A stretch of DNA of 31,113 bases from a virus (IMGVR_UViG_3300017776_000090:1-31113); one strand, 5' to 3'. Shown: positions 1 through 31,113, counted from the first letter of the stretch. Notes: generated by a model from the sequence alone, not told the origin. Made by a program: numbers and translations.

Positions 1-123
1 GCAGGTTCAGCTATCACTTATGCGCGAAGATATGCACTACAGTCTATCGCAGGTATACCGACAGCAGACGATGATGCAGAATCTGCAATGCTTAGATCAG
101 AACAGACTAAAACTCAAGAATAC
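1..123. repeat. Terminal direct repeat, copy 1 (identical to 30991..31113)
   Basis: Base-by-base comparison shows gcaggttcagctatcactta...aactcaagaatac at both window ends. The unit genome length is 30990 bp. Confidence 0.95.
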
Positions 124-4150: not shown

Positions 4151-4350
4151 GCAAAGTTATAAAATTTCCTGATGGTGGCGATAATGATAATGAAAAGCAT
4201 ATTACAGTTAATAAAGAATTTTGTTCAACTTGCGGTGGTGGTCTCGAGTTGTGGACTTCTAGCGATCTTGTGGCTTATGGTGTTTGCCCTCTTTGTGATC
4301 TGGGAGTTGGTACACAGCCCATTATACTTGTTAAGAGCAATGAGGAATGA
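4147..4350 (+). CDS. Small zinc-ribbon protein (CSTC…CPLC)
   Basis: 67 aa, ATGA overlap with the upstream gene, two CxxC pairs. Confidence 0.6.
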   Translation: MSKVIKFPDGGDNDNEKHITVNKEFCSTCGGGLELWTSSDLVAYGVCPLCDLGVGTQPIILVKSNEE

Positions 4351-22713: not shown

Positions 22714-25343
22714 TGACTATTACTGTATCTGTAACTAAAGATGTAACATCCTTATCAGTAACAGATTCGGTTACTCAGTTAAATATTGTCCCACAAACAA
22801 CTAGCATTGCCCTACAAAATATTGCAATAACTCAATCTAATAATGCCAGCGTTATTGGATATACTCCTAGTGGGCATCTTGAAGCTACAACAATACAAGC
22901 CGCATTAGATGAAATTGCCGCATCACCAGAGTTTACTGCCGCGCTAAATACCAAGTTACAAAATTTAAGCGCATCAGCAGATGAAACAAATACGGCTAAT
23001 GTGGTTAGCGCATTAAGTGCTGGTTCTAATATTTCCATTGCAGAAGATGGCACAATTGCCGCTAATGTATTAGGCGCAATATCGGGCGGTACAGGAATAG
23101 ATATTGATGCTGGTGGCGTAATAAGTGTCAGTGATATTGCCATTGCAACAGTTCAAACAGCCGCAGATGAAACAGCGCACTTAGCATTAACTACCCAGCA
23201 AGGTGATGTTGTTATTAGAACCGATGTTAATAAATCCTATATTCATAATGGTGGCACTGCTGGAACAATGGCTGATTTTACAGAATTGGCAACAAATACG
23301 AATGGCGTTATTTCTATAAATGGCGCAACTGGCGCAGTAACATTCGGTAAATCTAATTTAAATGATTATAGTGCTAATGAGTTTATAGATTGGACTATTT
23401 CACAGACAGAAAACATACACGCTGACAATTATACTAATACCACCTATTCGGCTGGCACAGGCATTCAAATAAGTGAATCAAATGAAATATCTGCAACTGG
23501 TGGTGGTTCGGGCGGTACAAGTTTTACTGCAAGTGGAAATATAAACTTAGATAACCAAAACAATCTTGACACGATTAGCAATCCATTATTTGATGAAGTT
23601 CGCTTTAGTAGCCTTGACGGCACTGCTGACTCTGGTGTTCTTATCAAGAGATTCCCTATAGAACTATACACATCGGGATTATACGGAGAAGGGCTAGGAA
23701 TATTTTTTAATAATAACGGCAATGAGCAGGTAGTAGGGGCAATACTTGAAACTGGATTCGCTGTTTTGGGTGAATTTGATACTAATACAGGCTTGAAAAT
23801 TGCAGGTTACAGATTTTTATTTGAAGCACAAGGATGGGATGAAAGAGGCGGCGTGTTAGCGACAGGTGGTCAACAGTATGTAGCACCGCAGGTATATAAT
23901 TTTGAAACTGACACAGCTACTTTTAATGCAGGTAGCGGTGATAATACAAGGCAAGACCACCGCAACCACAATCTATGGATACATCCTAACACTAGCGTTT
24001 TCATGCGTGATGAAGATGATGGTGGGAATATAAGTGGTGACTATAATCTAGTTAACAAAAAATACGTTGATGATAATCTTAATAACCTAAACGTGCCGAA
24101 CCTGCCTAATGTAAGCGGCACAACTTCAGAAGATAAACAATATTTGCTTGCAGGTAGTAATAGCTACTCAAGTTTAGGTTTTAATACTTTTTTAGGTGCA
24201 TCTGTTCACGTTTCTGGCGGAATGCACTTCGGACTTGTAGACCAAAATGTTAGCACTACTAAGTTTGGATTGCGTCTTGAGGCTGGTTCAGGCGTAACTT
24301 TAAACCGAACTAATGACTTTCATTGGACAATTAACGCTAATCCAGATGGATTGCCTGACCAAACTTCAGGAACAGATGGCTATGTTTTAACTAGTGTTAA
24401 TGAATCTGCCGCTTGGCAACCTGTAGGCAACGTAGTTTTTCCTACGCAAAGTGCCAACACTATCGGCTATGTTTTAACTAGCAATGGACTAACTGCACAA
24501 TGGCAACCTAACGACAGCTATCCATCACAAACTGACAACAGCGGCAAGTTTTTACAAACATTCAACGGCAGTGTTAGATGGGCAGAGGTAGATGCACTGC
24601 CAACACAATCTACCAATACAAGTAGTAATGATTACAGCGCAGGTAAGTTTCTTGCTAGTAACGGAGATAACGCATATTGGCACGTTCCTTCTAGCAGTGT
24701 TCCTGACCAAGATTCACATAACGGAAAGTTTCTAACAACTAATGGCTCACAATTAAGCTGGTCAACGATTAACACAGCAGGGACAACTGGCAATATTTCA
24801 TTTAGCACAAACACTATTTCGTCAAGCGATACGAGTATAAATATAGACGATGATTTGAATGTTCAGGGCGTATTAGATGCCGAAAGATTAGATGTTAGCG
24901 GAGCAGGTGCGCCTACTATAGAATCTATTGGTGCTTTTAACATTACCGCTCCTGATGGCGTTTATTGTAACCAGAAGCGCGTAGATGTTGATACGCCATT
25001 TGCTGTTCTTTATATTAGCTTTACAGCTAATATGGGGCAAATTACTAATTCAACTTTCATAGGCGAACGATATAACGGAAGTCCAACCGCACCTAATATG
25101 TTCATACAATCATCAGGGAATGGAAAGCAGATTGTTATTTCGTCTGTAGGCGCGAACGCGGCTAGTGATTATTTTGTTGAGGTTGCGCATAATTATGATA
25201 CGTTTATTACTAGAGACGATGAACCAGTTCGCATTGGCGTTCACAAATCAGGCTCTCAAGTTAATATTGTCTTAGCGCAGGGCGACAGCGTTTCTGCACC
25301 AGAGCAATCAGGTATGGTAAAGGTAAAATATTATGCTGTCTAG
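22713..25343 (+). CDS. Tail fibre protein (876 aa) with five tandem P-x-Q…G[KY][FV]L…W repeats
   Basis: The N-terminal …VIGYTPSGHLEATTIQAALDEIA motif is common in fibres. The protein is Gly/Asn/Thr-rich, with repeats at 24351-24773. Confidence 0.8.
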   Translation: MTITVSVTKDVTSLSVTDSVTQLNIVPQTTSIALQNIAITQSNNASVIGYTPSGHLEATTIQAALDEIAASPEFTAALNTKLQNLSASADETNTANVVSALSAGSNISIAEDGTIAANVLGAISGGTGIDIDAGGVISVSDIAIATVQTAADETAHLALTTQQGDVVIRTDVNKSYIHNGGTAGTMADFTELATNTNGVISINGATGAVTFGKSNLNDYSANEFIDWTISQTENIHADNYTNTTYSAGTGIQISESNEISATGGGSGGTSFTASGNINLDNQNNLDTISNPLFDEVRFSSLDGTADSGVLIKRFPIELYTSGLYGEGLGIFFNNNGNEQVVGAILETGFAVLGEFDTNTGLKIAGYRFLFEAQGWDERGGVLATGGQQYVAPQVYNFETDTATFNAGSGDNTRQDHRNHNLWIHPNTSVFMRDEDDGGNISGDYNLVNKKYVDDNLNNLNVPNLPNVSGTTSEDKQYLLAGSNSYSSLGFNTFLGASVHVSGGMHFGLVDQNVSTTKFGLRLEAGSGVTLNRTNDFHWTINANPDGLPDQTSGTDGYVLTSVNESAAWQPVGNVVFPTQSANTIGYVLTSNGLTAQWQPNDSYPSQTDNSGKFLQTFNGSVRWAEVDALPTQSTNTSSNDYSAGKFLASNGDNAYWHVPSSSVPDQDSHNGKFLTTNGSQLSWSTINTAGTTGNISFSTNTISSSDTSINIDDDLNVQGVLDAERLDVSGAGAPTIESIGAFNITAPDGVYCNQKRVDVDTPFAVLYISFTANMGQITNSTFIGERYNGSPTAPNMFIQSSGNGKQIVISSVGANAASDYFVEVAHNYDTFITRDDEPVRIGVHKSGSQVNIVLAQGDSVSAPEQSGMVKVKYYAV

Positions 25344-27366
25344 ATATATGGTTTTGTCGGCAGAAGGTATTAATGTCTCTGAAATAGATGCTTTAGTAGC
25401 AGGTAGCATAATCACAAATAGTATACCTGATAGGTCAGTAGAAGTTTTGCCAGAAAACGTGCTTTCTAAACGATGTTCAGTTTATAAATTAACTACAGAA
25501 GAAGCGGATGAACTGAAAAAAAGCAATTTAGTAAAATCTGTTGAATTACATATTGAAGATAACCCAAACGTACTGTCAGTACATACAGGCGTTAGCAGTG
25601 ATAATTACGATAGAAAAAGTTTTGATGCTAATAATCTTAGTTATGCTAATTATGGTTTGATTAGGCACACAAGTAGGGAATCATCATTATATGATTTAGA
25701 TGGCAGTATTAATTCACAGTTTAGTGACCAATATAAATATTCTAATTCTGGTGAAGGTGTAGATATATTTATTATGGATACTGGAGTTCAAGCTAACCAC
25801 CCTGACTTTTTAGATGAATACGGAAAAAGCAGAGTACAGCAAATAGATTGGACAAAATATATAGAACAAAACTATCCTAATTATTTTACATCCGAGAGGC
25901 GAGAGGCTTTAAAACCTGAAAACTATTATCAAGACAATGAAGGTTTTCATGGCACTCAATGCGCGAGTATAGCTGCAGGGAATCGCTATGGTTGGGCTAA
26001 AAAAGCACATATATATTCATTGAAAATAAATCTAGCAGGCTATAATTATCATCTGCCCTCACACTATCAGATGCTAGTGGCTATGAAAAGTTTTATTGAA
26101 GAAAGACAAGCTAACGGAATCAATAGACCTGCGATTTTAAGTAATAGCTGGGGGATTATAAGGCTATTTTCTAGCATGAGTAATGTTACTGGTGGATTTT
26201 ATGCTGATGAAAATACAACTGGCACACAATGGTCGAGAGGTAATTTAACAAATAGTCAGATACAAGCTACCTATAAAATACTACCGACTACATATCTAAC
26301 TGCCAACTACGAATCTATTAACCAAGATGTACAAGATTTGATAGATATAGGCGTACACATTGTAGCTAGTGCCGCTAATCATGGTGCTAGAATGTTGCCA
26401 AGAAATGACGCAGAATATAATAATATAATTAATTGGACTGATGACGAGGGAGAAAGTCAATCAGCACCATATAATCAAGTGTCAACACCTCACGCCGATG
26501 AAGCAATTATAGTAGGTGGACTGTCAGAAAATTTGCACAATAACAATGGAAACACACAAGAACAAATTGTTAATTATAGTGTTCGCGGAAAGCGCGTAGA
26601 TGTAATGGCAGCTAGTGACGGTTGCTTTGCGGCTGTTAGTGAATTGGCAACTAATAAACCTAACCAACGACAACACCCTGATAATTCATCACAGTTTATA
26701 GGCGAGTTTGGCGGCACAAGTTGCTCTTGCCCACAGACAGCAGGTGTAATGGCTCTGCACTTGTCTAATAAGCCGCACCTAAAACCTGATGCCCTAAGAG
26801 AATTAATAATAAATGAATCTACTAAAGACGTTATTCTTGGCACTGGCGGCTTTGCTGATGTAAATCCTTTTTTAGATACGCCTAACAGGATGCTTTATAG
26901 CAAGTTTAATCAAGATGTTAGTCTAACTACGGCAGGTGCATATAAGATTATTAATGCTAATATTAGCGGTGAATATAAATTTAAAACTAAGTTTAGGTCA
27001 GATAATGTTATATTTAAAACTAACGGAGTAGCACAAGATAACGATGGTTTTTTTGTATTAACAGATACTGACGCTTTATATGAAGGTTCTACTATACGTT
27101 ACATAGAAATATGGCAAGCGGCTCGCAGAACGCAGTTGAATTTGGTTTTTGATGCACACCCTGTTAAAATGAAAACACATAATTGGAATACTTTAGAAAT
27201 ACAGAACCATACTCTAAATGTGTTTGTAAAATTACATAGAACTGACGCTGTTTTTGATCCAATTAAACAATCTTTTTATTGGGATACAGATAAATATACT
27301 AGTTTTAATACAAGCCCAATTTTATCAAACAGTGGCATACCAGATAATTCAATAGGCATAAGATGA
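25333..27366 (+). CDS. Subtilisin-like serine protease (peptidase S8) with an I9-like propeptide and a C-terminal extra domain
   Basis: The catalytic triad motifs occur in S8 order: IMDTG (Asp at 25777-25779), HGTQCAS (His at 25948-25950), GGTSCSCPQTAG (Ser at 26719-26721), plus NSWG. The N-terminal VYKLTTEEADELKKSNLVKSVE resembles an I9 propeptide. There is no signal peptide. Confidence 0.85.
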   Translation: MLSRYMVLSAEGINVSEIDALVAGSIITNSIPDRSVEVLPENVLSKRCSVYKLTTEEADELKKSNLVKSVELHIEDNPNVLSVHTGVSSDNYDRKSFDANNLSYANYGLIRHTSRESSLYDLDGSINSQFSDQYKYSNSGEGVDIFIMDTGVQANHPDFLDEYGKSRVQQIDWTKYIEQNYPNYFTSERREALKPENYYQDNEGFHGTQCASIAAGNRYGWAKKAHIYSLKINLAGYNYHLPSHYQMLVAMKSFIEERQANGINRPAILSNSWGIIRLFSSMSNVTGGFYADENTTGTQWSRGNLTNSQIQATYKILPTTYLTANYESINQDVQDLIDIGVHIVASAANHGARMLPRNDAEYNNIINWTDDEGESQSAPYNQVSTPHADEAIIVGGLSENLHNNNGNTQEQIVNYSVRGKRVDVMAASDGCFAAVSELATNKPNQRQHPDNSSQFIGEFGGTSCSCPQTAGVMALHLSNKPHLKPDALRELIINESTKDVILGTGGFADVNPFLDTPNRMLYSKFNQDVSLTTAGAYKIINANISGEYKFKTKFRSDNVIFKTNGVAQDNDGFFVLTDTDALYEGSTIRYIEIWQAARRTQLNLVFDAHPVKMKTHNWNTLEIQNHTLNVFVKLHRTDAVFDPIKQSFYWDTDKYTSFNTSPILSNSGIPDNSIGIR

Positions 27367-27530
27367 TGGCACAGGAAACAAAACAAGCAATGGATTTAGT
27401 CGCGGCATCAACAGGTATTCTTTCATTAGCCGCTTGGCTACCACCCATTGCCGCAATATTCACTATTGTTTGGTATGGAATTAGGATTTGGGAAAGCGAC
27501 ACTGTAAAATCTATTCGTTGTAAAAAGTGA
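27363..27530 (+). CDS. Two-TM microprotein, holin/antiholin-like (55 aa)
   Basis: MMAQETKQAMDLVAASTGILSLAAWLPPIAAIFTIVWYGIRIWESDTVKSIRCKK has two hydrophobic segments and a basic tail. ATGA overlap with the S8 gene. It is below the track cutoff. Confidence 0.5.
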   Translation: MMAQETKQAMDLVAASTGILSLAAWLPPIAAIFTIVWYGIRIWESDTVKSIRCKK

Positions 27531-28141
27531 AAAAATTATTATTATTATTTTTATTTAGCAGTTTTGTTAATGCAAACCAGCAAGAAGGTTCGCTAAATAC
27601 ATATAATGGAGAAGGTGCAACCACCAATTCCAACAATACAACAGAAGATAATTCCACTAGCAATTCTTATTCAGGCGCAGGTGCGTCTAGTCAAATACCT
27701 GTTGGTTCTGCAATATCTCCGACTTATATGAGCAATGGCGTTGAAACTTGTTTAAAAGGTACAGGTTCGTCTTTCCAAACAGTGTTGCTAGGTTGGTCTA
27801 GGGGTAAGTATGTAGATTCAGAAGGATGCACTAGGCGAAGGGATGCGCTAGTTTTAAACCAATTAGGAATGGCTGTTGGCGCAATTAGCAGATTGTGCGA
27901 TTCAGTTAAAGTGTTCAGGGCTATGCTTAACAGTGGCACACCTTGTCCGATTTTATCAGGGGGAAAATTAGTGGTTGGTCGAAAAGCTATCATGGTTTTG
28001 AAGGCACAGCCAGAAACTTACATTCCAGATTACAGTGACGACAAAGAATATTATGACGCACTGTTACAAATTGGCGAGGTTGTAGAAAATGAAGAAGGCG
28101 ATATTGATATTGTTGCTAAGTTCCGCACTAGCAAGCAGTAA
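27527..28141 (+). CDS. Secreted protein (204 aa, Sec signal peptide, N/S/T-rich linker, 4-Cys domain)
   Basis: The GTG start overlaps the upstream TGA (GTGA). VKKLLLLFLFSSFVNA|NQQ is a signal-peptidase-I-type leader with no lipobox. Confidence 0.6.
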   Translation: MKKLLLLFLFSSFVNANQQEGSLNTYNGEGATTNSNNTTEDNSTSNSYSGAGASSQIPVGSAISPTYMSNGVETCLKGTGSSFQTVLLGWSRGKYVDSEGCTRRRDALVLNQLGMAVGAISRLCDSVKVFRAMLNSGTPCPILSGGKLVVGRKAIMVLKAQPETYIPDYSDDKEYYDALLQIGEVVENEEGDIDIVAKFRTSKQ

Positions 28142-28910
28142 CGAATTAGACTATTTGATAGAGTCAACATCTAGCATTGTTGACCAAATGAACAAAGGCG
28201 TTCAAATGGTTGGTGCAGGTCTTGAATACTCACATCAAGGCACAGGCTTATCTGATGGTACAATGCACCTAGAGGCGCAAATTACTAGCGCACAATTGTC
28301 TGCATACAACTCAGCCCTGATTAATATGTCAAACTACTTGCCTTATGGCGACACAAAACAGACGCTTTTAGATATGGCAGACGAGCATTTGCAAATTGTC
28401 GATGAAAGCGTAGATGTTTTTACTAGTGCCGTAGTACAAATGCAGACAGCGCATCAGGTGGTTGAAATGGCAGAGACAGCCGCCACCCCCAACGAAGAAG
28501 AACAGGTTAAAGACTTTGTAACAGCTAACGTAGAAAGCCTACAAATAACACAAGAGACTGTTGACGATTATAATAGCAGTCTGGAGTCGATTGAAGAAAA
28601 TGCTAACATTGCATCTAGCTTTATTGCAGTTGCTAACAACACTGAAGCTACTGAATTTTTGCGACAAGGTGCAGAAGACAATAGCACAACAGCAGAAATG
28701 TCTACTGTAGCTTATGACGCTAATCAGCAATGGGTTAAAATGACCTACAGCAACGGCAACGCAAACGCTGTTTTTCTTAATGGTCAAAGTTTTGGTTTGG
28801 ACTTATATCTAACTGGCGCAGAAATATTAGCCGCAGGTAGTGAATCTGAATATTATCAAACTAGCCCAATGCTTAATGGCTACAACTGCTACTTTAATCA
28901 GGATTGCTAA
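28089..28910 (+). CDS. Secreted protein (273 aa, Sec signal peptide)
   Basis: MKKAILILLLSSALA|SSNE leader. The start lies 53 nt inside the preceding gene. The product is acidic with C-terminal Cys residues. Confidence 0.65.
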   Translation: MKKAILILLLSSALASSNELDYLIESTSSIVDQMNKGVQMVGAGLEYSHQGTGLSDGTMHLEAQITSAQLSAYNSALINMSNYLPYGDTKQTLLDMADEHLQIVDESVDVFTSAVVQMQTAHQVVEMAETAATPNEEEQVKDFVTANVESLQITQETVDDYNSSLESIEENANIASSFIAVANNTEATEFLRQGAEDNSTTAEMSTVAYDANQQWVKMTYSNGNANAVFLNGQSFGLDLYLTGAEILAAGSESEYYQTSPMLNGYNCYFNQDC

Positions 28911-29386
28911 TGTCTTTAGAAGATACAGAAATAAAAATAGGCGGCACATCATTCAAGGGCATTTATGTGGCTATAGTATTGTCATTAGCAACAAGTCTTG
29001 GTGGGGTATTCTGGAGTGCTAGTAGCCTGTATAGTAGACTAGAAGCAGTCGAATCAATAACTATTCCAGACGTACAGCCTATGCAAGAAGAACTACAGTT
29101 AATAAAACAGCAGTTACAAGACAACGAAATTGGTGCTTTAAGCGCAAAATTAGCGACTTTAGGCACTAACCTTGCAACCATAATGGATCAGCAAGAAAAG
29201 CTGTTAGAACTCAAATCTGAGCTTTCTACGCTATCTAAAGAGATAGAGGCTATGAAAGGCACAGTTGCGGCGGCTGAAATTACAACCAGAGATAACGAAG
29301 ATATTGCAGATCGTATAACTGTACTTACAAAAGAGGCAGAAGATTTGTGGCAAGCAATCTCATATTTATCGAACCCCTATAGGTGA
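28910..29386 (+). CDS. N-terminally anchored coiled-coil membrane protein (i-spanin-like topology)
   Basis: ATG 28910 (TAATG overlap; the track start 28904 is TTG). TM segment IYVAIVLSLATSLGGVFW, followed by heptad-like E/L/Q-rich sequence. Confidence 0.6.
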   Translation: MSLEDTEIKIGGTSFKGIYVAIVLSLATSLGGVFWSASSLYSRLEAVESITIPDVQPMQEELQLIKQQLQDNEIGALSAKLATLGTNLATIMDQQEKLLELKSELSTLSKEIEAMKGTVAAAEITTRDNEDIADRITVLTKEAEDLWQAISYLSNPYR

Positions 29387-29389
29387 TTT

Positions 29390-29761
29390 ATGTGGCAATC
29401 ATTAATAAGCCCAATAGCTAACATAGCAGGTGGCTACTTAAAGAACAAAGCAGAAGAAAAGCAAGCCAAGCACAAAGCAAAAATGAGCATGATTAAAAAC
29501 GATGCTGAGTGGGAAAATAAGATGGTTGATGCCTCTGCAAACAGCCTTAAAGATGAATTTTGGACTGGCGTTTTGGCTATCCCAATTTTTATGATTGGTT
29601 ATGCTATAGTAGTTAATGATTTGACAGTTATTGATAGAGTTGAGCAGGGCTTTGCGGCATTAAGTCAACTGCCAGAATGGTATCAATACCTATTATTTAT
29701 TTGCATCAGTTCCAGTTTTGGAATTAAAGGTGCATCAAAACTTATGAATTTGAGGAAGTAA
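29390..29761 (+). CDS. Holin (3-TM type, resembling the GTA-release holin family as I recall it)
   Basis: AGGTGA RBS. It has an N-terminal amphipathic/basic region then hydrophobic segments (WTGVLAIPIFMIGYAIVV, YQYLLFICISSSFGI). It lies directly upstream of the endolysin. Confidence 0.55.
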   Translation: MWQSLISPIANIAGGYLKNKAEEKQAKHKAKMSMIKNDAEWENKMVDASANSLKDEFWTGVLAIPIFMIGYAIVVNDLTVIDRVEQGFAALSQLPEWYQYLLFICISSSFGIKGASKLMNLRK

Positions 29762-30222: not shown

Positions 30223-30246
30223 GCCCCTTAATTGGGGCTTTTTTTT
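30223..30246 (+). terminator. Rho-independent terminator gcccc-ttaatt-ggggc + T8
   Basis: 5-bp GC stem, 6-nt loop and eight consecutive T residues. It lies 32 nt after the endolysin stop. Confidence 0.8.
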
Positions 30247-30331: not shown

Positions 30332-30475
30332 ATGACTTTAATCCAGCTACTAAAAAAACTTAACAGCGAAAATGTTAAGTACAACGCAGAAGCAACAATT
30401 AAGCATAATGCACAAGTAAACGCTTACATTGAAAAGCTAATAGAAGAAAAAATGCAAACTATTGATGCAATATAA
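30332..30475 (+). CDS. Small hypothetical protein (47 aa) MTLIQLLKKLNSENVKYNAEATIKHNAQVNAYIEKLIEEKMQTIDAI
   Basis: First ORF after element B. Translated by hand; below the track cutoff. Confidence 0.45.
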   Translation: MTLIQLLKKLNSENVKYNAEATIKHNAQVNAYIEKLIEEKMQTIDAI

Positions 30476-30483
30476 TTATAAAC

Positions 30484-30497
30484 CCCCCGAAAGGGGG
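30484..30497 (+). other. RNA hairpin ccccc-GAAA-ggggg, no U-tract
   Basis: Perfect 5-bp GC stem with a GNRA tetraloop, in the same context as 5035-5052. Confidence 0.5.
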
Positions 30498-30515
30498 CAA
30501 CCAAAGGAGACTATT

Positions 30516-30704
30516 ATGACAGACTTAAACAAACTAACTGACTACGAAGCTGGCGAATGGGACTGCGTACACGCTAGACCAGCTAGGGAATGTGAGTCAG
30601 CGCAATATTATGCAGGTTATGGGGATGCCTATGCTAGTGAGCAGAGTGCTACTTGGTATTCAGAACGTAAATTTTTAGAAATCATGGGAGAAGCAAATGA
30701 ATAG
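30516..30704 (+). CDS. Small acidic hypothetical protein (62 aa)
   Basis: ATG 30516 lies 6 nt after AAGGAG. The track start 30462 is TTG and would run through the hairpin. Confidence 0.55.
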   Translation: MTDLNKLTDYEAGEWDCVHARPARECESAQYYAGYGDAYASEQSATWYSERKFLEIMGEANE

Positions 30705-31113
30705 TAGTACAGAAACAAATGAACTAGCGTTAGCATTGTGTCTAGCGCAAGGTCAGATGGGGGGTGCTGTCAAAGACAGTGCCAACCCATTCTTTAAATC
30801 AAGCTATGCTGATCTAACGTCAGTCATCAAGGCTATCAAGCAACCATTTGGTGATAATGGTCTAAGCTACACGCAGTTGCCTGTAAGCAATGAAATAGGC
30901 GTAGGCGTAGCAACTAGACTAATGCACGTTTCAGGACAATGGCTAGAGTCAGAGTTTGTACTGCCTATTGTAAAACAAGACCCACAAGCGGCAGGTTCAG
31001 CTATCACTTATGCGCGAAGATATGCACTACAGTCTATCGCAGGTATACCGACAGCAGACGATGATGCAGAATCTGCAATGCTTAGATCAGAACAGACTAA
31101 AACTCAAGAATAC
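30697..31113 (+). CDS. erf: ERF-family recombinase, 5' part (continues at base 124 of the window after the repeat)
   Basis: ATG 30697 lies after GGGAG and is open to the window end (139 codons). It reads in frame with 1..330 through the 123-bp repeat. Confidence 0.8.
   Translation, partial: MNSSTETNELALALCLAQGQMGGAVKDSANPFFKSSYADLTSVIKAIKQPFGDNGLSYTQLPVSNEIGVGVATRLMHVSGQWLESEFVLPIVKQDPQAAGSAITYARRYALQSIAGIPTADDDAESAMLRSEQTKTQEY
30991..31113. repeat. Terminal direct repeat, copy 2 (identical to 1..123)
   Basis: Exact 123/123 identity with the window start. Confidence 0.95.

What the first reader, a model, noticed from the sequence alone, without database searches (positions are those of the whole stretch)
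27363..29386. Four-gene envelope-directed cassette in front of the holin/endolysin, in a lysis region with no recognisable spanins
Four tightly coupled genes lie between the S8 protease and the holin-endolysin pair. Each product is predicted to leave the cytoplasm. They are a 55-aa two-TM microprotein, a 204-aa protein with a Sec leader (VKKLLLLFLFSSFVNA|NQ) and a 4-Cys domain, a 273-aa protein with a Sec leader (MKKAILILLLSSALA|SS), and a 158-aa N-anchored coiled-coil protein. Phages of Gram-negative hosts normally carry an i-spanin/o-spanin pair or a lipoprotein u-spanin next to the endolysin. I found no lipobox (L-x-x-C) leader anywhere here. I found no out-of-frame ORF embedded in the coiled-coil gene. 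Nothing is coded between the endolysin stop and the terminator. The coiled-coil protein has i-spanin topology but no partner. The cassette may therefore be a non-canonical outer-membrane disruption or envelope-remodelling system, or a superinfection-exclusion module, that does not match the described spanin or disruptin types.
Basis: partly seen in the sequence, partly recalled or inferred. Interest (0 to 1): 0.78.

Follow-up and report, generated by a model that had tools for sequence, protein, structure and literature searches.

The report
Exported three-protein module in phage lysis cassette
A complete 31-kb marine phage genome with no recognisable spanin carries, inside its holin-endolysin cassette, three uncharacterised genes for envelope-targeted proteins; the same genes recur in the same order in many ocean phages and may perform or control the last, outer-membrane step of host lysis.

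Summary
Genes g55 (27363-27530), g204 (27527-28141), g273 (28089-28910) and g160 (28910-29386) are translationally coupled. They lie between an S8 subtilase and a holin-like gene plus an M15 endolysin, followed by a terminator.

The window is a complete genome (123-nt terminal repeat). It has no credible lipoprotein ORF, so it has no canonical spanin.

The unit is three genes plus one, not four. g55 travels with the holin, even in relatives that lack the other three. g204-g273-g160 is an invariant triad: 77 of 77 untruncated related loci, in both sipho- and podovirus backbones.

Two of its families form a much wider core.
- The signal-peptide, four-cysteine protein has 1227 clusters at 50% identity.
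- A transmembrane, coiled-coil protein ending in N-P-L/Y lies downstream in 62 of 62 diverse loci.
- One to four other signal-bearing proteins lie between them.

Roseobacter phages add an unannotated lipoprotein paralogue of the cysteine domain.

None of the proteins matches Pfam, NCBIfam, PADLOC, PDB sequences or PDB folds. g204 matches one PHROG of unknown function.

Best reading, about 0.4 and inferred: an envelope complex substituting for spanins. Rivals are lysis-timing control and superinfection exclusion. The membrane orientation of g160 and mutual exclusivity with spanins remain unresolved.

The parts
27363..27530 (+). g55: 55-aa small membrane protein. It is a partner of the holin set and not part of the triad.
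   Evidence: It has a hydrophobic stretch at residues 12-40 with a central PP and a basic C-terminus. It is 69% identical to the L007 54-aa protein. In relatives, this protein or an unrelated 60-68-aa tail-anchored protein sits next to the holin, whether or not the triad is present.
27527..28141 (+). g204 (component A): signal peptide, conserved N/S/T/G-rich arm, P-x-x-S-A-I-x-P motif, four-Cys helical domain, acidic stretch, F-R-[ST]-S tail.
   Evidence: The alignment of 36 homologues shows a cleavage-type leader ending in A just before N-Q-Q-E-G-S and conserved Cys residues. It matches phrog_20531, of unknown function (7e-10). A profile search finds 1227 clusters at 50% identity. Pfam finds no domain in 114 representatives. 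The AF2 model has pLDDT 55, with only residues 120-180 at about 80, and gives no fold match.
28089..28910 (+). g273 (component B): signal peptide, very acidic helical bundle, small C-terminal domain with a conserved Cys pair.
   Evidence: The mature part has 38 D/E against 5 K/R. The AF2 model has pLDDT 85, with helices at 19-197, strands at 206-229, and C267 and C273. There is no significant PDB fold match (best E 0.34). BFVD matches are all uncharacterised phage proteins (1e-10). Homologues occur only in the window-type and roseophage-type clades.
28910..29386 (+). g160 (component C): N-terminal E-x-x-I-G-G-x-x-F-K-G motif, one TM with a (S/T)-L-G-G motif, juxtamembrane R-L-E-x-V-E..I-P-D-V-x-P, coiled coil, C-terminal N-P-Y/L.
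   Evidence: Shown. 147 of 162 family members end in NP[LYFIMV] plus 0-5 residues. All Pfam, NCBIfam and PADLOC hits are sub-threshold coiled-coil noise. Orientation is undecidable.
29390..29761 (+). Holin-like protein, 123 aa.
   Evidence: It matches phrog_2524 (7e-36) and has hydrophobic segments at about 57-76 and 96-115. It lies directly upstream of the endolysin. An alternative holin type at the same position in relatives matches PF11351 GTA_holin_3TM. That family includes the tested holin TeaA of phage ICP1 (PMC7182436).
29763..30191 (+). Endolysin, Peptidase_M15_3, with no signal or SAR segment.
   Evidence: Pfam 1.7e-8 and phrog_894 endolysin 1.4e-20. It has no hydrophobic window.
30223..30246 (+). 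Terminator-like hairpin plus T-run that closes the late operon.
   Evidence: GCCCC-TTAATT-GGGGC followed by TTTTTTTT.

Best explanation
The real unit is a mobile three-gene envelope module, g204-g273-g160. It is inserted into a holin-endolysin cassette between the small holin partner g55 and the holin.

Shown:
- g204 and g273 carry cleavable Sec-type leaders and conserved cysteines, which fits disulfide formation in the periplasm.
- g160 is a single-pass membrane protein with a long, acidic coiled coil and an invariant C-terminal N-P-L/Y tail.
- The three genes are always contiguous and in the same order.
- This complete genome has no lipoprotein, so it has no canonical spanin.

Inferred:
- g160 sits N-in and C-out, like an i-spanin.
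- g160, the helical rod g273 and g204 assemble into a complex that reaches across the periplasm.
- The extended Ser/Thr/Asn-rich N-terminal arm of g204 provides the reach towards the outer membrane.
- After the holin fires and the M15 endolysin removes the peptidoglycan, the complex destabilises or removes the outer membrane. It would thereby do the job that Rz/Rz1-type spanins do elsewhere.

In Roseobacter phages a lipoprotein paralogue of the g204 cysteine domain would supply a lipid anchor. In many distant relatives the g204-type protein instead has its own C-terminal membrane anchor. That gives it a spanin-like two-ended architecture without a lipobox.
For: - Tight translational coupling runs from the S8 gene through to the endolysin, and a terminator follows.
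- The triad is contiguous and in order in 77 of 80 related IMG/VR loci. The other three are cut by contig ends. It occurs in this siphovirus (tape measure and major tail protein) and in SU10-like podoviruses.
- In those loci the triad abuts a holin-like gene, and in about half an M15 peptidase. The same adjacency is seen in pelagiphage HTVC023P and in L115 and L140.
- The genome is complete (123-nt terminal repeat). It has no credible lipobox ORF, and its only TM-plus-coiled-coil protein is g160.
- The conserved cysteines and the signal-peptide pattern are seen.
- In 62 of 62 diverse loci the Cys-domain gene is followed by a TM-coiled-coil-xPL gene. The genes between them almost always begin with a signal-like segment.
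- CRP-810 and CRP-207 carry a lipoprotein paralogue (lipoboxes LLSA|C and LLAG|C) homologous to the g204 cysteine domain. The same paralogue occurs in 12 further roseophage-type loci.
- C-terminal TM variants of the Cys-domain protein are seen.
- The module is almost absent from 185,579 bacterial genomes: 3 short MAG contigs. This fits a lytic-cycle function.
Against: - No lipid anchor or other outer-membrane attachment is evident in the window's version.
- Sixteen close relatives with a 70-78% identical holin lack the triad. They also show no lipoprotein nearby, except L243. The triad is therefore dispensable in that backbone, and no mutual exclusivity with spanins was seen.
- The orientation of g160 is undecidable. 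Mean K+R is 1.57 in the N flank and 1.82 in the C flank over 115 members.
- The TM of g160 carries a conserved (S/T)-L-G-G motif and a conserved juxtamembrane segment. That is more than a passive anchor needs and suggests an interaction within the membrane, for example with a holin.
- In the wider superfamily only 4 of 150 immediate neighbours have a recognisable endolysin domain.
- Variants of the Cys-domain protein with a C-terminal TM place that domain near the inner membrane, not the outer one.
- There is no experimental evidence for any member.
Confidence: 0.4

Rival explanations
1. Lysis-timing control. In this reading g160 is an antiholin-like or holin-accessory membrane protein, or a releasin-like N-out/C-in tethered cytoplasmic protein. 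The exported proteins g204 and g273 are periplasmic sensors or regulators. The system would resemble the T4 holin T and its periplasmic antiholin RI, or ICP1 TeaA and ArrA.
For: - g160 lies directly upstream of the holin-like gene, and in most window-type relatives the triad abuts a holin-like gene on one side or the other.
- 42 of 62 diverse loci have a TM protein among the first two ORFs after it.
- Its TM has a conserved Gly-Gly motif and a conserved juxtamembrane segment.
- Its soluble domain is anionic (21 D/E against 11 K/R), like the cytoplasmic domain of Mu gp25 (PMC9239132).
- The triad is optional in otherwise similar cassettes, as expected of a regulator.
- PF11351-type holins can support lysis inhibition with an adjacent membrane antiholin (PMC7182436).
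Against: - No homology to RI, RIII, ArrA or gp25. The DUF2730 hits are 13-16 bits against a cutoff of 24.9, among dozens of coiled-coil hits.
- The endolysin has no SAR segment, so a releasin has no obvious substrate.
- About 635 residues of strongly conserved exported protein is a large investment for a timing device in a 31-kb genome.
- The wider family often lacks a recognisable holin next to it.
Confidence: 0.2
2. Superinfection exclusion or progeny protection. The exported proteins mask or modify a receptor or an envelope entry route from the periplasmic side, as T5 Llp, Cor and T4 Sp/Imm do.
For: - All products are envelope-directed.
- Roseophages carry a small Cys-containing lipoprotein version.
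- In many loci the module lies next to tail-fibre genes.
- The triad is optional among close relatives.
Against: - It sits at the end of the late operon, translationally coupled to the holin and endolysin, rather than among early genes.
- It is essentially absent from bacterial genomes and prophages.
- Its upstream neighbour varies: S8 protease or different fibre types. Its link to the holin set is constant in the window clade.
- There are no PADLOC hits.
- A three-part complex with a long coiled coil is unlike known single-protein exclusion factors.
Confidence: 0.1
3. Virion or ejection proteins. The hydrophobic N-termini would be membrane-insertion segments used during infection rather than Sec signals.
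For: In SU10-like podoviruses the module lies among adaptor, capsid and tail-fibre genes.
Against: - The same triad occurs in a siphovirus with a tape measure.
- The leaders have canonical A-x-A cleavage sites just before a conserved mature N-terminus.
- The conserved cysteine pairs point to an oxidising compartment.
- There is no similarity to any PHROG structural family.
Confidence: 0.03

Closest known systems
Two-component spanins (lambda Rz/Rz1, T7 gp18.5/18.7, P2 LysB/LysC)
   Same: They sit in a lysis cassette of a phage of a Gram-negative host. One subunit has an N-terminal TM and a long coiled coil. Partner proteins are exported to the periplasm and carry conserved cysteines. The C-terminal end of the membrane subunit is conserved, as expected for a docking site.
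   Different: The window has no lipoprotein partner. There are three subunits rather than two. The exported genes precede the membrane subunit and are neither embedded in it nor following it. There is no sequence similarity (best spanin PHROG E = 0.19). The TM of g160 is itself conserved. The orientation of g160 is unproven.
Unimolecular spanins (T1 gp11; roseophage SIO1 and the cobaviruses, PMC6775973)
   Same: Many distant relatives of g204 have an N-terminal export signal and a C-terminal TM anchor joined by an extended periplasmic segment. That is the same two-ended layout.
   Different: The signal is a type I (A-x-A) signal, not a lipobox, so there is no outer-membrane lipid anchor. The window's g204 lacks the C-terminal TM. 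The protein is always accompanied by the xPL coiled-coil protein.
Disruptin (phiKT gp28; bioRxiv 10.1101/515445)
   Same: It would be an alternative to spanins in a genome without spanins.
   Different: Disruptin is a single small cationic amphipathic peptide. The proteins here are large, are exported by signal peptides, and are acidic (g273) or near neutral (g204).
Mu gp25 releasin (DUF2730; PMC9239132)
   Same: It is a single N-terminal TM followed by an anionic helical domain, encoded within a few genes of the endolysin.
   Different: The Pfam match is below threshold and indistinguishable from coiled-coil noise. The endolysin here is not a SAR endolysin. g160 has a 17-residue conserved N-tail, whereas gp25 has about 4 periplasmic residues.
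T4 holin T with periplasmic antiholin RI; ICP1 TeaA/ArrA
   Same: A membrane lysis protein with a large extramembrane domain works with exported or periplasmic partner proteins. In relatives, a PF11351-type holin sits at the same position.
   Different: There is no homology. No evidence exists for lysis inhibition in these phages. The partner proteins here are much larger and more numerous.

Membership tests
Two-component spanin | i-spanin: type II (N-in, C-out) inner-membrane protein with a periplasmic coiled-coil domain | tested here: inconclusive
   The TM at about 17-39 and the heptad pattern at 76-150 are present. Orientation is not decidable: over 115 family members the flanking K+R averages 1.57 against 1.82.
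Two-component spanin | o-spanin: small outer-membrane lipoprotein with a lipobox, encoded within, overlapping or next to the i-spanin gene | tested here: not met
   No lipobox ORF occurs in the cassette or in the whole complete genome. The alt-frame ORF 28840-29022 is not conserved.
Two-component spanin | Sequence membership in a known Rz or Rz1 family | tested here: not met
   Pfam gives no spanin family. The best PHROG spanin hit is phrog_739 at E = 0.19.
Two-component spanin | Location in the lysis cassette with holin and endolysin | tested here: met
Two-component spanin | Required for outer-membrane disruption; a null mutant arrests as spherical cells | not testable with these tools
   This needs genetics in CRP-207, CRP-810 or a pelagiphage, or complementation of lambda Rz/Rz1.
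Unimolecular spanin | One protein with an N-terminal lipobox signal and a C-terminal TM domain | tested here: not met
   g204 has an A-x-A type leader and no C-terminal hydrophobic segment. Distant relatives have a C-terminal TM but still no lipobox.
Disruptin | Small, strongly cationic amphipathic peptide without an export signal | tested here: not met
   Mature g273 has 5 K/R against 38 D/E. Mature g204 has 17 against 21. Both have leaders.
Releasin (DUF2730) | Pfam PF10805 match above the gathering score | tested here: not met
   There is no hit for the window protein at E <= 1. Relatives score 13.4-16.1 bits against a cutoff of 24.9.
Releasin (DUF2730) | Paired with a SAR endolysin | tested here: not met
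   The M15 endolysin has no hydrophobic N-terminal segment.
PF11351 GTA_holin_3TM (for the 123-aa protein downstream) | Pfam match | tested here: not met
   The window protein has no PF11351 hit and matches only phrog_2524. The alternative 132-aa protein at the same position in L007 and L008 does match PF11351. The holin role of the window protein is inferred from position and TM content.
Anti-phage defence / exclusion systems (PADLOC) | Match to any PADLOC model | tested here: not met
   g55, g204 and g273 give no hits. g160 gives only coiled-coil noise (E >= 9e-4).

The most novel reading that the evidence does not exclude
The signal-peptide four-Cys protein and the TM-coiled-coil-N-P-L protein, with the exported protein or proteins encoded between them, form a previously undescribed class of phage envelope machinery that needs no lipoprotein. 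It would carry out the outer-membrane step of lysis, or a comparable trans-envelope task, in a large share of marine and freshwater phages. These include pelagiphages and roseophages, for which no outer-membrane disruptor is known.
Probability: 0.3. Interest if true: 0.88.

Novelty: new variant of a known kind. Interest (0 to 1): 0.7.

Why it matters

The module found here is strictly syntenic. It is built from protein families with no Pfam, PDB or literature coverage. It is large: 1227 clusters at 50% identity for one component alone. It sits in the lysis cassettes of uncultured ocean phages and of isolates that infect SAR11 and Roseobacter, which are among the most abundant host-virus pairs on Earth.

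If the module is the outer-membrane disruptor, it would be a third mechanistic class. It would also explain how these phages escape cells in Mg2+/Ca2+-rich seawater. If instead it controls lysis timing, it would be a new periplasmic sensing system.

Either way it turns an open question into defined constructs that can be tested in the culturable phages CRP-207, CRP-810 and HTVC023P. It also corrects database labels ('lysozyme', 'OmpA family protein') that currently hide the module.

Tried and rejected
- **Near-identical phage DNA:** megablast of the region against 50,697 phage records found nothing.
- **Profile and sequence libraries:** no informative hit for the four proteins. Libraries searched were Pfam, PHROGs, NCBIfam, PADLOC and PDB sequence profiles.
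- **g204 structure:** the AF2 model was too poor (pLDDT 55) for a fold search to mean anything.
- **g273 structure:** the model is good (pLDDT 85), but it matches only generic helical bundles in PDB (F-BAR, HlyD, E about 0.3). In BFVD it matches only uncharacterised phage proteins.
- **DUF2730/releasin lead:** this arose from 'faint' precomputed hits. It was rejected as coiled-coil noise.
- **Annotations in CRP-810 and CRP-207:**
  - The 'lysozyme' label on the g160 homologues is probably coiled-coil-driven, because automatic source names for this family include 'CwlO-like', 'SbcC' and similar labels. Pfam finds no lysozyme domain in them.
  - The 'OmpA family protein' label on the g204 homologue has no Pfam support.
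- **Hidden o-spanin:** the out-of-frame ORF 28840-29022 with an L-A-Q-C motif was rejected. It has no real signal peptide and is broken by stops in L013 and L015.
- **Positive-inside analysis to orient g160:** inconclusive.
- **Mutual-exclusivity test:**
  - The question was whether relatives without the triad carry canonical spanins.
  - The result was inconclusive or negative. Sixteen triad-negative loci were found, and only one has a nearby lipoprotein.
- **Bulk Pfam scan of neighbours in the wider family:** it did not generalise the endolysin adjacency.
- **Literature:** searches on pelagiphage or roseophage spanins, spanin-less phages, PF11351, CRP-207 and CRP-810 found no description of the module.
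- **Residue covariation between subunits:** not attempted, because there are too few non-redundant triplets.

Full report
**1. What is in the window**

The window is a complete phage genome. Its first and last 123 nt are identical, so the unique length is about 30,990 bp.

PHROG matches identify a siphovirus-type late region: large terminase, portal, major head protein, major tail protein, tape measure and a J-like central fibre. An 876-aa fibre protein follows, and then a 677-aa Peptidase_S8 protein.

From the S8 gene onward, seven genes are joined by overlapping or nearly abutting stop and start codons (ATGA, GTGA, a 53-nt overlap, TAATG, a 3-nt gap and a 1-nt gap). The series ends in a GC hairpin with a T-run at 30223-30246.

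- g55, 27363-27530
- g204, 27527-28141, with a GTG start
- g273, 28089-28910
- g160, 28910-29386

Next come a 123-aa membrane protein (phrog_2524, function unknown) and a Peptidase_M15_3 endolysin with no hydrophobic segment.

**2. Checking the individual claims**

Alignments of 36 and 40 metagenomic homologues show that both leaders behave like signal peptides. They vary in sequence but always have K/R, a hydrophobic core and small residues at -3 and -1, and they end just before a conserved mature N-terminus. The four cysteines of g204 and the two of g273 are invariant or nearly so. This fits export and disulfide formation.

g160 has one hydrophobic segment followed by heptad-patterned, acidic sequence.

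g55 has one 29-residue hydrophobic stretch with a central Pro-Pro. 'Two TM' is therefore not established.

No lipobox ORF exists in the cassette or anywhere else in the genome. The only plus-strand candidate, at 4172, is a doubly hydrophobic micro-ORF in the early region and is not spanin-like.

The 60-aa out-of-frame ORF at the g273/g160 junction is interrupted by stops in close relatives.

**3. The unit is three genes plus one**

A scan of IMG/VR with the g204 alignment returned 80 loci with at least 54% identity. g204, g273 and g160 are contiguous and in the same order in 77 of them. The remaining three are cut by contig ends.

Around this triad the cassette is shuffled:
- The small membrane protein comes in two unrelated types. 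One is the g55 type. The other is a 60-68-aa tail-anchored coiled-coil type.
- The holin-like gene also comes in two types. One is the 123-aa window type. The other is a 132-aa type that matches PF11351.
- The order is small-TRIAD-holin-M15, small-holin-TRIAD-M15 or, once, TRIAD...M15-small-holin.

A second scan was anchored on the holin.
- Of 54 loci with enough flanking sequence, 38 have the triad and 16 lack it.
- The triad-negative loci keep the small protein next to the holin (g55 type in L227 and L231).
- They add a 144-161-aa membrane protein.

So g55 belongs to the holin set, and the triad is an optional, mobile insert.

The triad occurs in this siphovirus and in podoviruses with SU10-type portal and adaptor genes. 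It is nearly absent from 185,579 bacterial genomes, where only three short MAG contigs were found.

**4. A much wider core**

tblastn found the module in Roseobacter phages CRP-810 and CRP-207 (27-39% identity, same order). It found the g204 cysteine domain in six pelagiphages and in Ralstonia phage RSP15.

Three observations extend the picture.

(a) An extra lipoprotein in roseophages.
- Both roseophages carry an unannotated small lipoprotein gene directly upstream of the g204 homologue, with lipoboxes LLSA|C and LLAG|C.
- Its mature part is homologous to the g204 cysteine domain.
- Twelve further roseophage-type metagenomic loci have the same gene.

(b) The g160 family is recognisable across all these clades. 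Its features are the TM with a (S/T)-L-G-G motif, a juxtamembrane R-L-E-x-V-E..I-P-D-V-x-P segment and an invariant C-terminal N-P-L/Y.

(c) The pairing holds in diverse loci.
- Eighty loci were fetched with a roseophage/pelagiphage Cys-domain profile, from contigs up to 331 kb.
- In 62 of the 62 with at least 3 kb downstream, a g160-type gene lies 0.7-3 kb downstream on the same strand.
- The one to four genes in between almost always begin with a signal-like segment. Only the window-type and roseophage-type clades use a g273-type protein there.

Many distant Cys-domain proteins have a long Ser/Thr/Asn-rich arm after the leader (40-400 residues), a conserved P-P-P-S-A-I-x-P motif, the Cys domain and a C-terminal TM anchor.

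A profile search of 1.84 billion cluster representatives found 1227 Cys-domain clusters at E <= 1e-3. None of the 114 representatives scanned has a real Pfam domain.

**5. What the proteins are**

No protein of the module matches Pfam, NCBIfam, PADLOC or PDB sequence profiles. g204 matches one PHROG of unknown function.

- **g273:** it gives a confident AF2 model (pLDDT 85). This is a bundle of roughly 30-residue helices plus a small C-terminal domain holding the Cys pair. No PDB fold match is significant, and the BFVD matches are all uncharacterised phage proteins.
- **g204:** it modelled poorly.
- **g160:** database names for its homologues ('SbcC', 'CwlO-like peptidoglycan hydrolase') are coiled-coil artefacts. 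This probably explains the 'lysozyme' label on CRP-810 gp51 and CRP-207 gp73.

**6. Function**

The following is shown:
- The triad encodes envelope-targeted proteins.
- It is under strong constraint and is inherited as a block.
- In the window's clade and in several others (HTVC023P, L115, L140) it sits inside the holin-endolysin cassette of lytic phages.
- This complete genome has no canonical spanin.

My best inference (about 0.4) is that the triad is a spanin substitute. An inner-membrane coiled-coil subunit (g160), a periplasmic rod (g273) and an arm-bearing Cys-domain subunit (g204) would act on the outer membrane once the endolysin has removed the wall. The roseophage lipoprotein paralogue and the two-ended SP...TM variants fit a trans-envelope role.

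Against this reading:
- The window's version has no visible outer-membrane anchor.
- The triad is dispensable in close relatives, and those relatives show no spanin nearby either.
- g160 cannot be oriented from sequence.
- The conserved TM and juxtamembrane motifs of g160 suggest an interaction inside the membrane.
- In the wider family a recognisable endolysin is rarely adjacent.

The main rival (about 0.2) is control of lysis timing. It is modelled on T4 T/RI, on ICP1 TeaA/ArrA (PMC7182436) or on the Mu releasin (PMC9239132). The DUF2730 similarity is only noise, and the endolysin is not a SAR type.

Superinfection exclusion (about 0.1) and a virion role (about 0.03) are less likely. The reasons are the late-operon position, the cleavable leaders, the occurrence in different virion types and the absence from prophages.

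**7. Comparison and novelty**

The module works most like a spanin in context and in the architecture of one subunit. It fails the defining membership tests for two-component spanins (no lipoprotein), for unimolecular spanins (no lipobox, and no C-terminal TM in the window) and for disruptin (neither small nor cationic).

I found no paper describing it.

I rate it a new variant of a known kind, namely an envelope component of a phage lysis cassette built from unknown families. There is a real chance (about 0.3) that it is a categorically new class of trans-envelope lysis machinery that is widespread in aquatic phages.

Noticed in passing
window 1-123 and 30991-31113: The first and last 123 nt are identical. 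The window is therefore a complete genome of about 30,990 bp, either circularly assembled or terminally redundant.
   Followed up: partly
L001 4397-4657 (CRP-810, OR671924.1, about 46390-46650, minus strand) and L002 1725-1940 (CRP-207, MZ892987.1): These are unannotated small lipoprotein genes (lipoboxes LLSA|C and LLAG|C). They are paralogous to the cysteine domain of the neighbouring g204-type gene. The same gene is present in 12 more roseophage-type IMG/VR loci.
   Followed up: yes
L001 6001-6423 (CRP-810 gp51 'lysozyme'), L002 3292-3873 (CRP-207 gp73 'putative lysozyme'), L001 4615-5370 (CRP-810 gp53 'OmpA family protein'): These GenBank product names are not supported. The first two are TM-coiled-coil homologues of g160. 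The third is the g204 homologue and has no OmpA domain. The real endolysins of these two phages were not located.
   Followed up: partly
window 25333-27366: This is a 677-aa Peptidase_S8 (subtilase) protein with no signal peptide. It is translationally coupled to the fibre gene upstream and to g55 downstream. In relatives this position is taken by different tail-fibre proteins, so it is probably a tail-associated protease. Its role is unknown.
   Followed up: no
L207, L217, L232, L236, L243 (about 3.1-4.3 kb) and L227/L231: Triad-negative relatives carry an extra 144-161-aa membrane protein upstream of the small protein and holin. It starts M-I-D-P-x-T-A and has a C-terminal TM. Similar proteins follow the g160-type gene in distant loci (L125, L155). 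Pfam does not recognise it as PF11351.
   Followed up: partly
L125 7757-8329: A Lipase_3 (class 3 lipase, GHSLG) gene lies just downstream of the module and the holin-like genes in one distant locus. It could be a lipid-directed lysis enzyme, in the way LysB is in mycobacteriophages.
   Followed up: no
L001 6425-6676, L002 4228-4506, L227 4869-5147, L133 7991-8278, L124 3619-3867: A small, very basic protein (DUF5872, ...KRTPxHPxKSH...SAAYWAxKVKW) recurs next to the module. In L227 it lies between the holin and the M15 endolysin.
   Followed up: no
L009 5526-5885, L010 5264-5605, L011 2844-3170: The pelagiphage versions of the g160-type protein contain a His-rich insert, for example HSHDMPKHSHEVGEHQHDEHGH. 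This suggests metal binding.
   Followed up: no
L133 5367-6786; also L135, L147, L153, L157, L159: In one clade, four signal-bearing genes of about 290, 170, 130 and 160 aa lie between the Cys-domain gene and the g160-type gene. One of them has N- and C-terminal cysteines. None has a Pfam match.
   Followed up: no
window 30462-30704: This 80-aa ORF lies after the terminator and contains ...GEWDCVHARP...YYAGYGDAYASEQ. It has clear counterparts after the lysis cassette in L207, L217 and L236. It is a conserved gene of unknown function at the start of the next transcription unit.
   Followed up: no
window 30482-30498 (minus strand): A strong GC hairpin with a T-run on the minus strand lies inside the start of the 80-aa ORF, although all genes are on the plus strand.
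   Followed up: no
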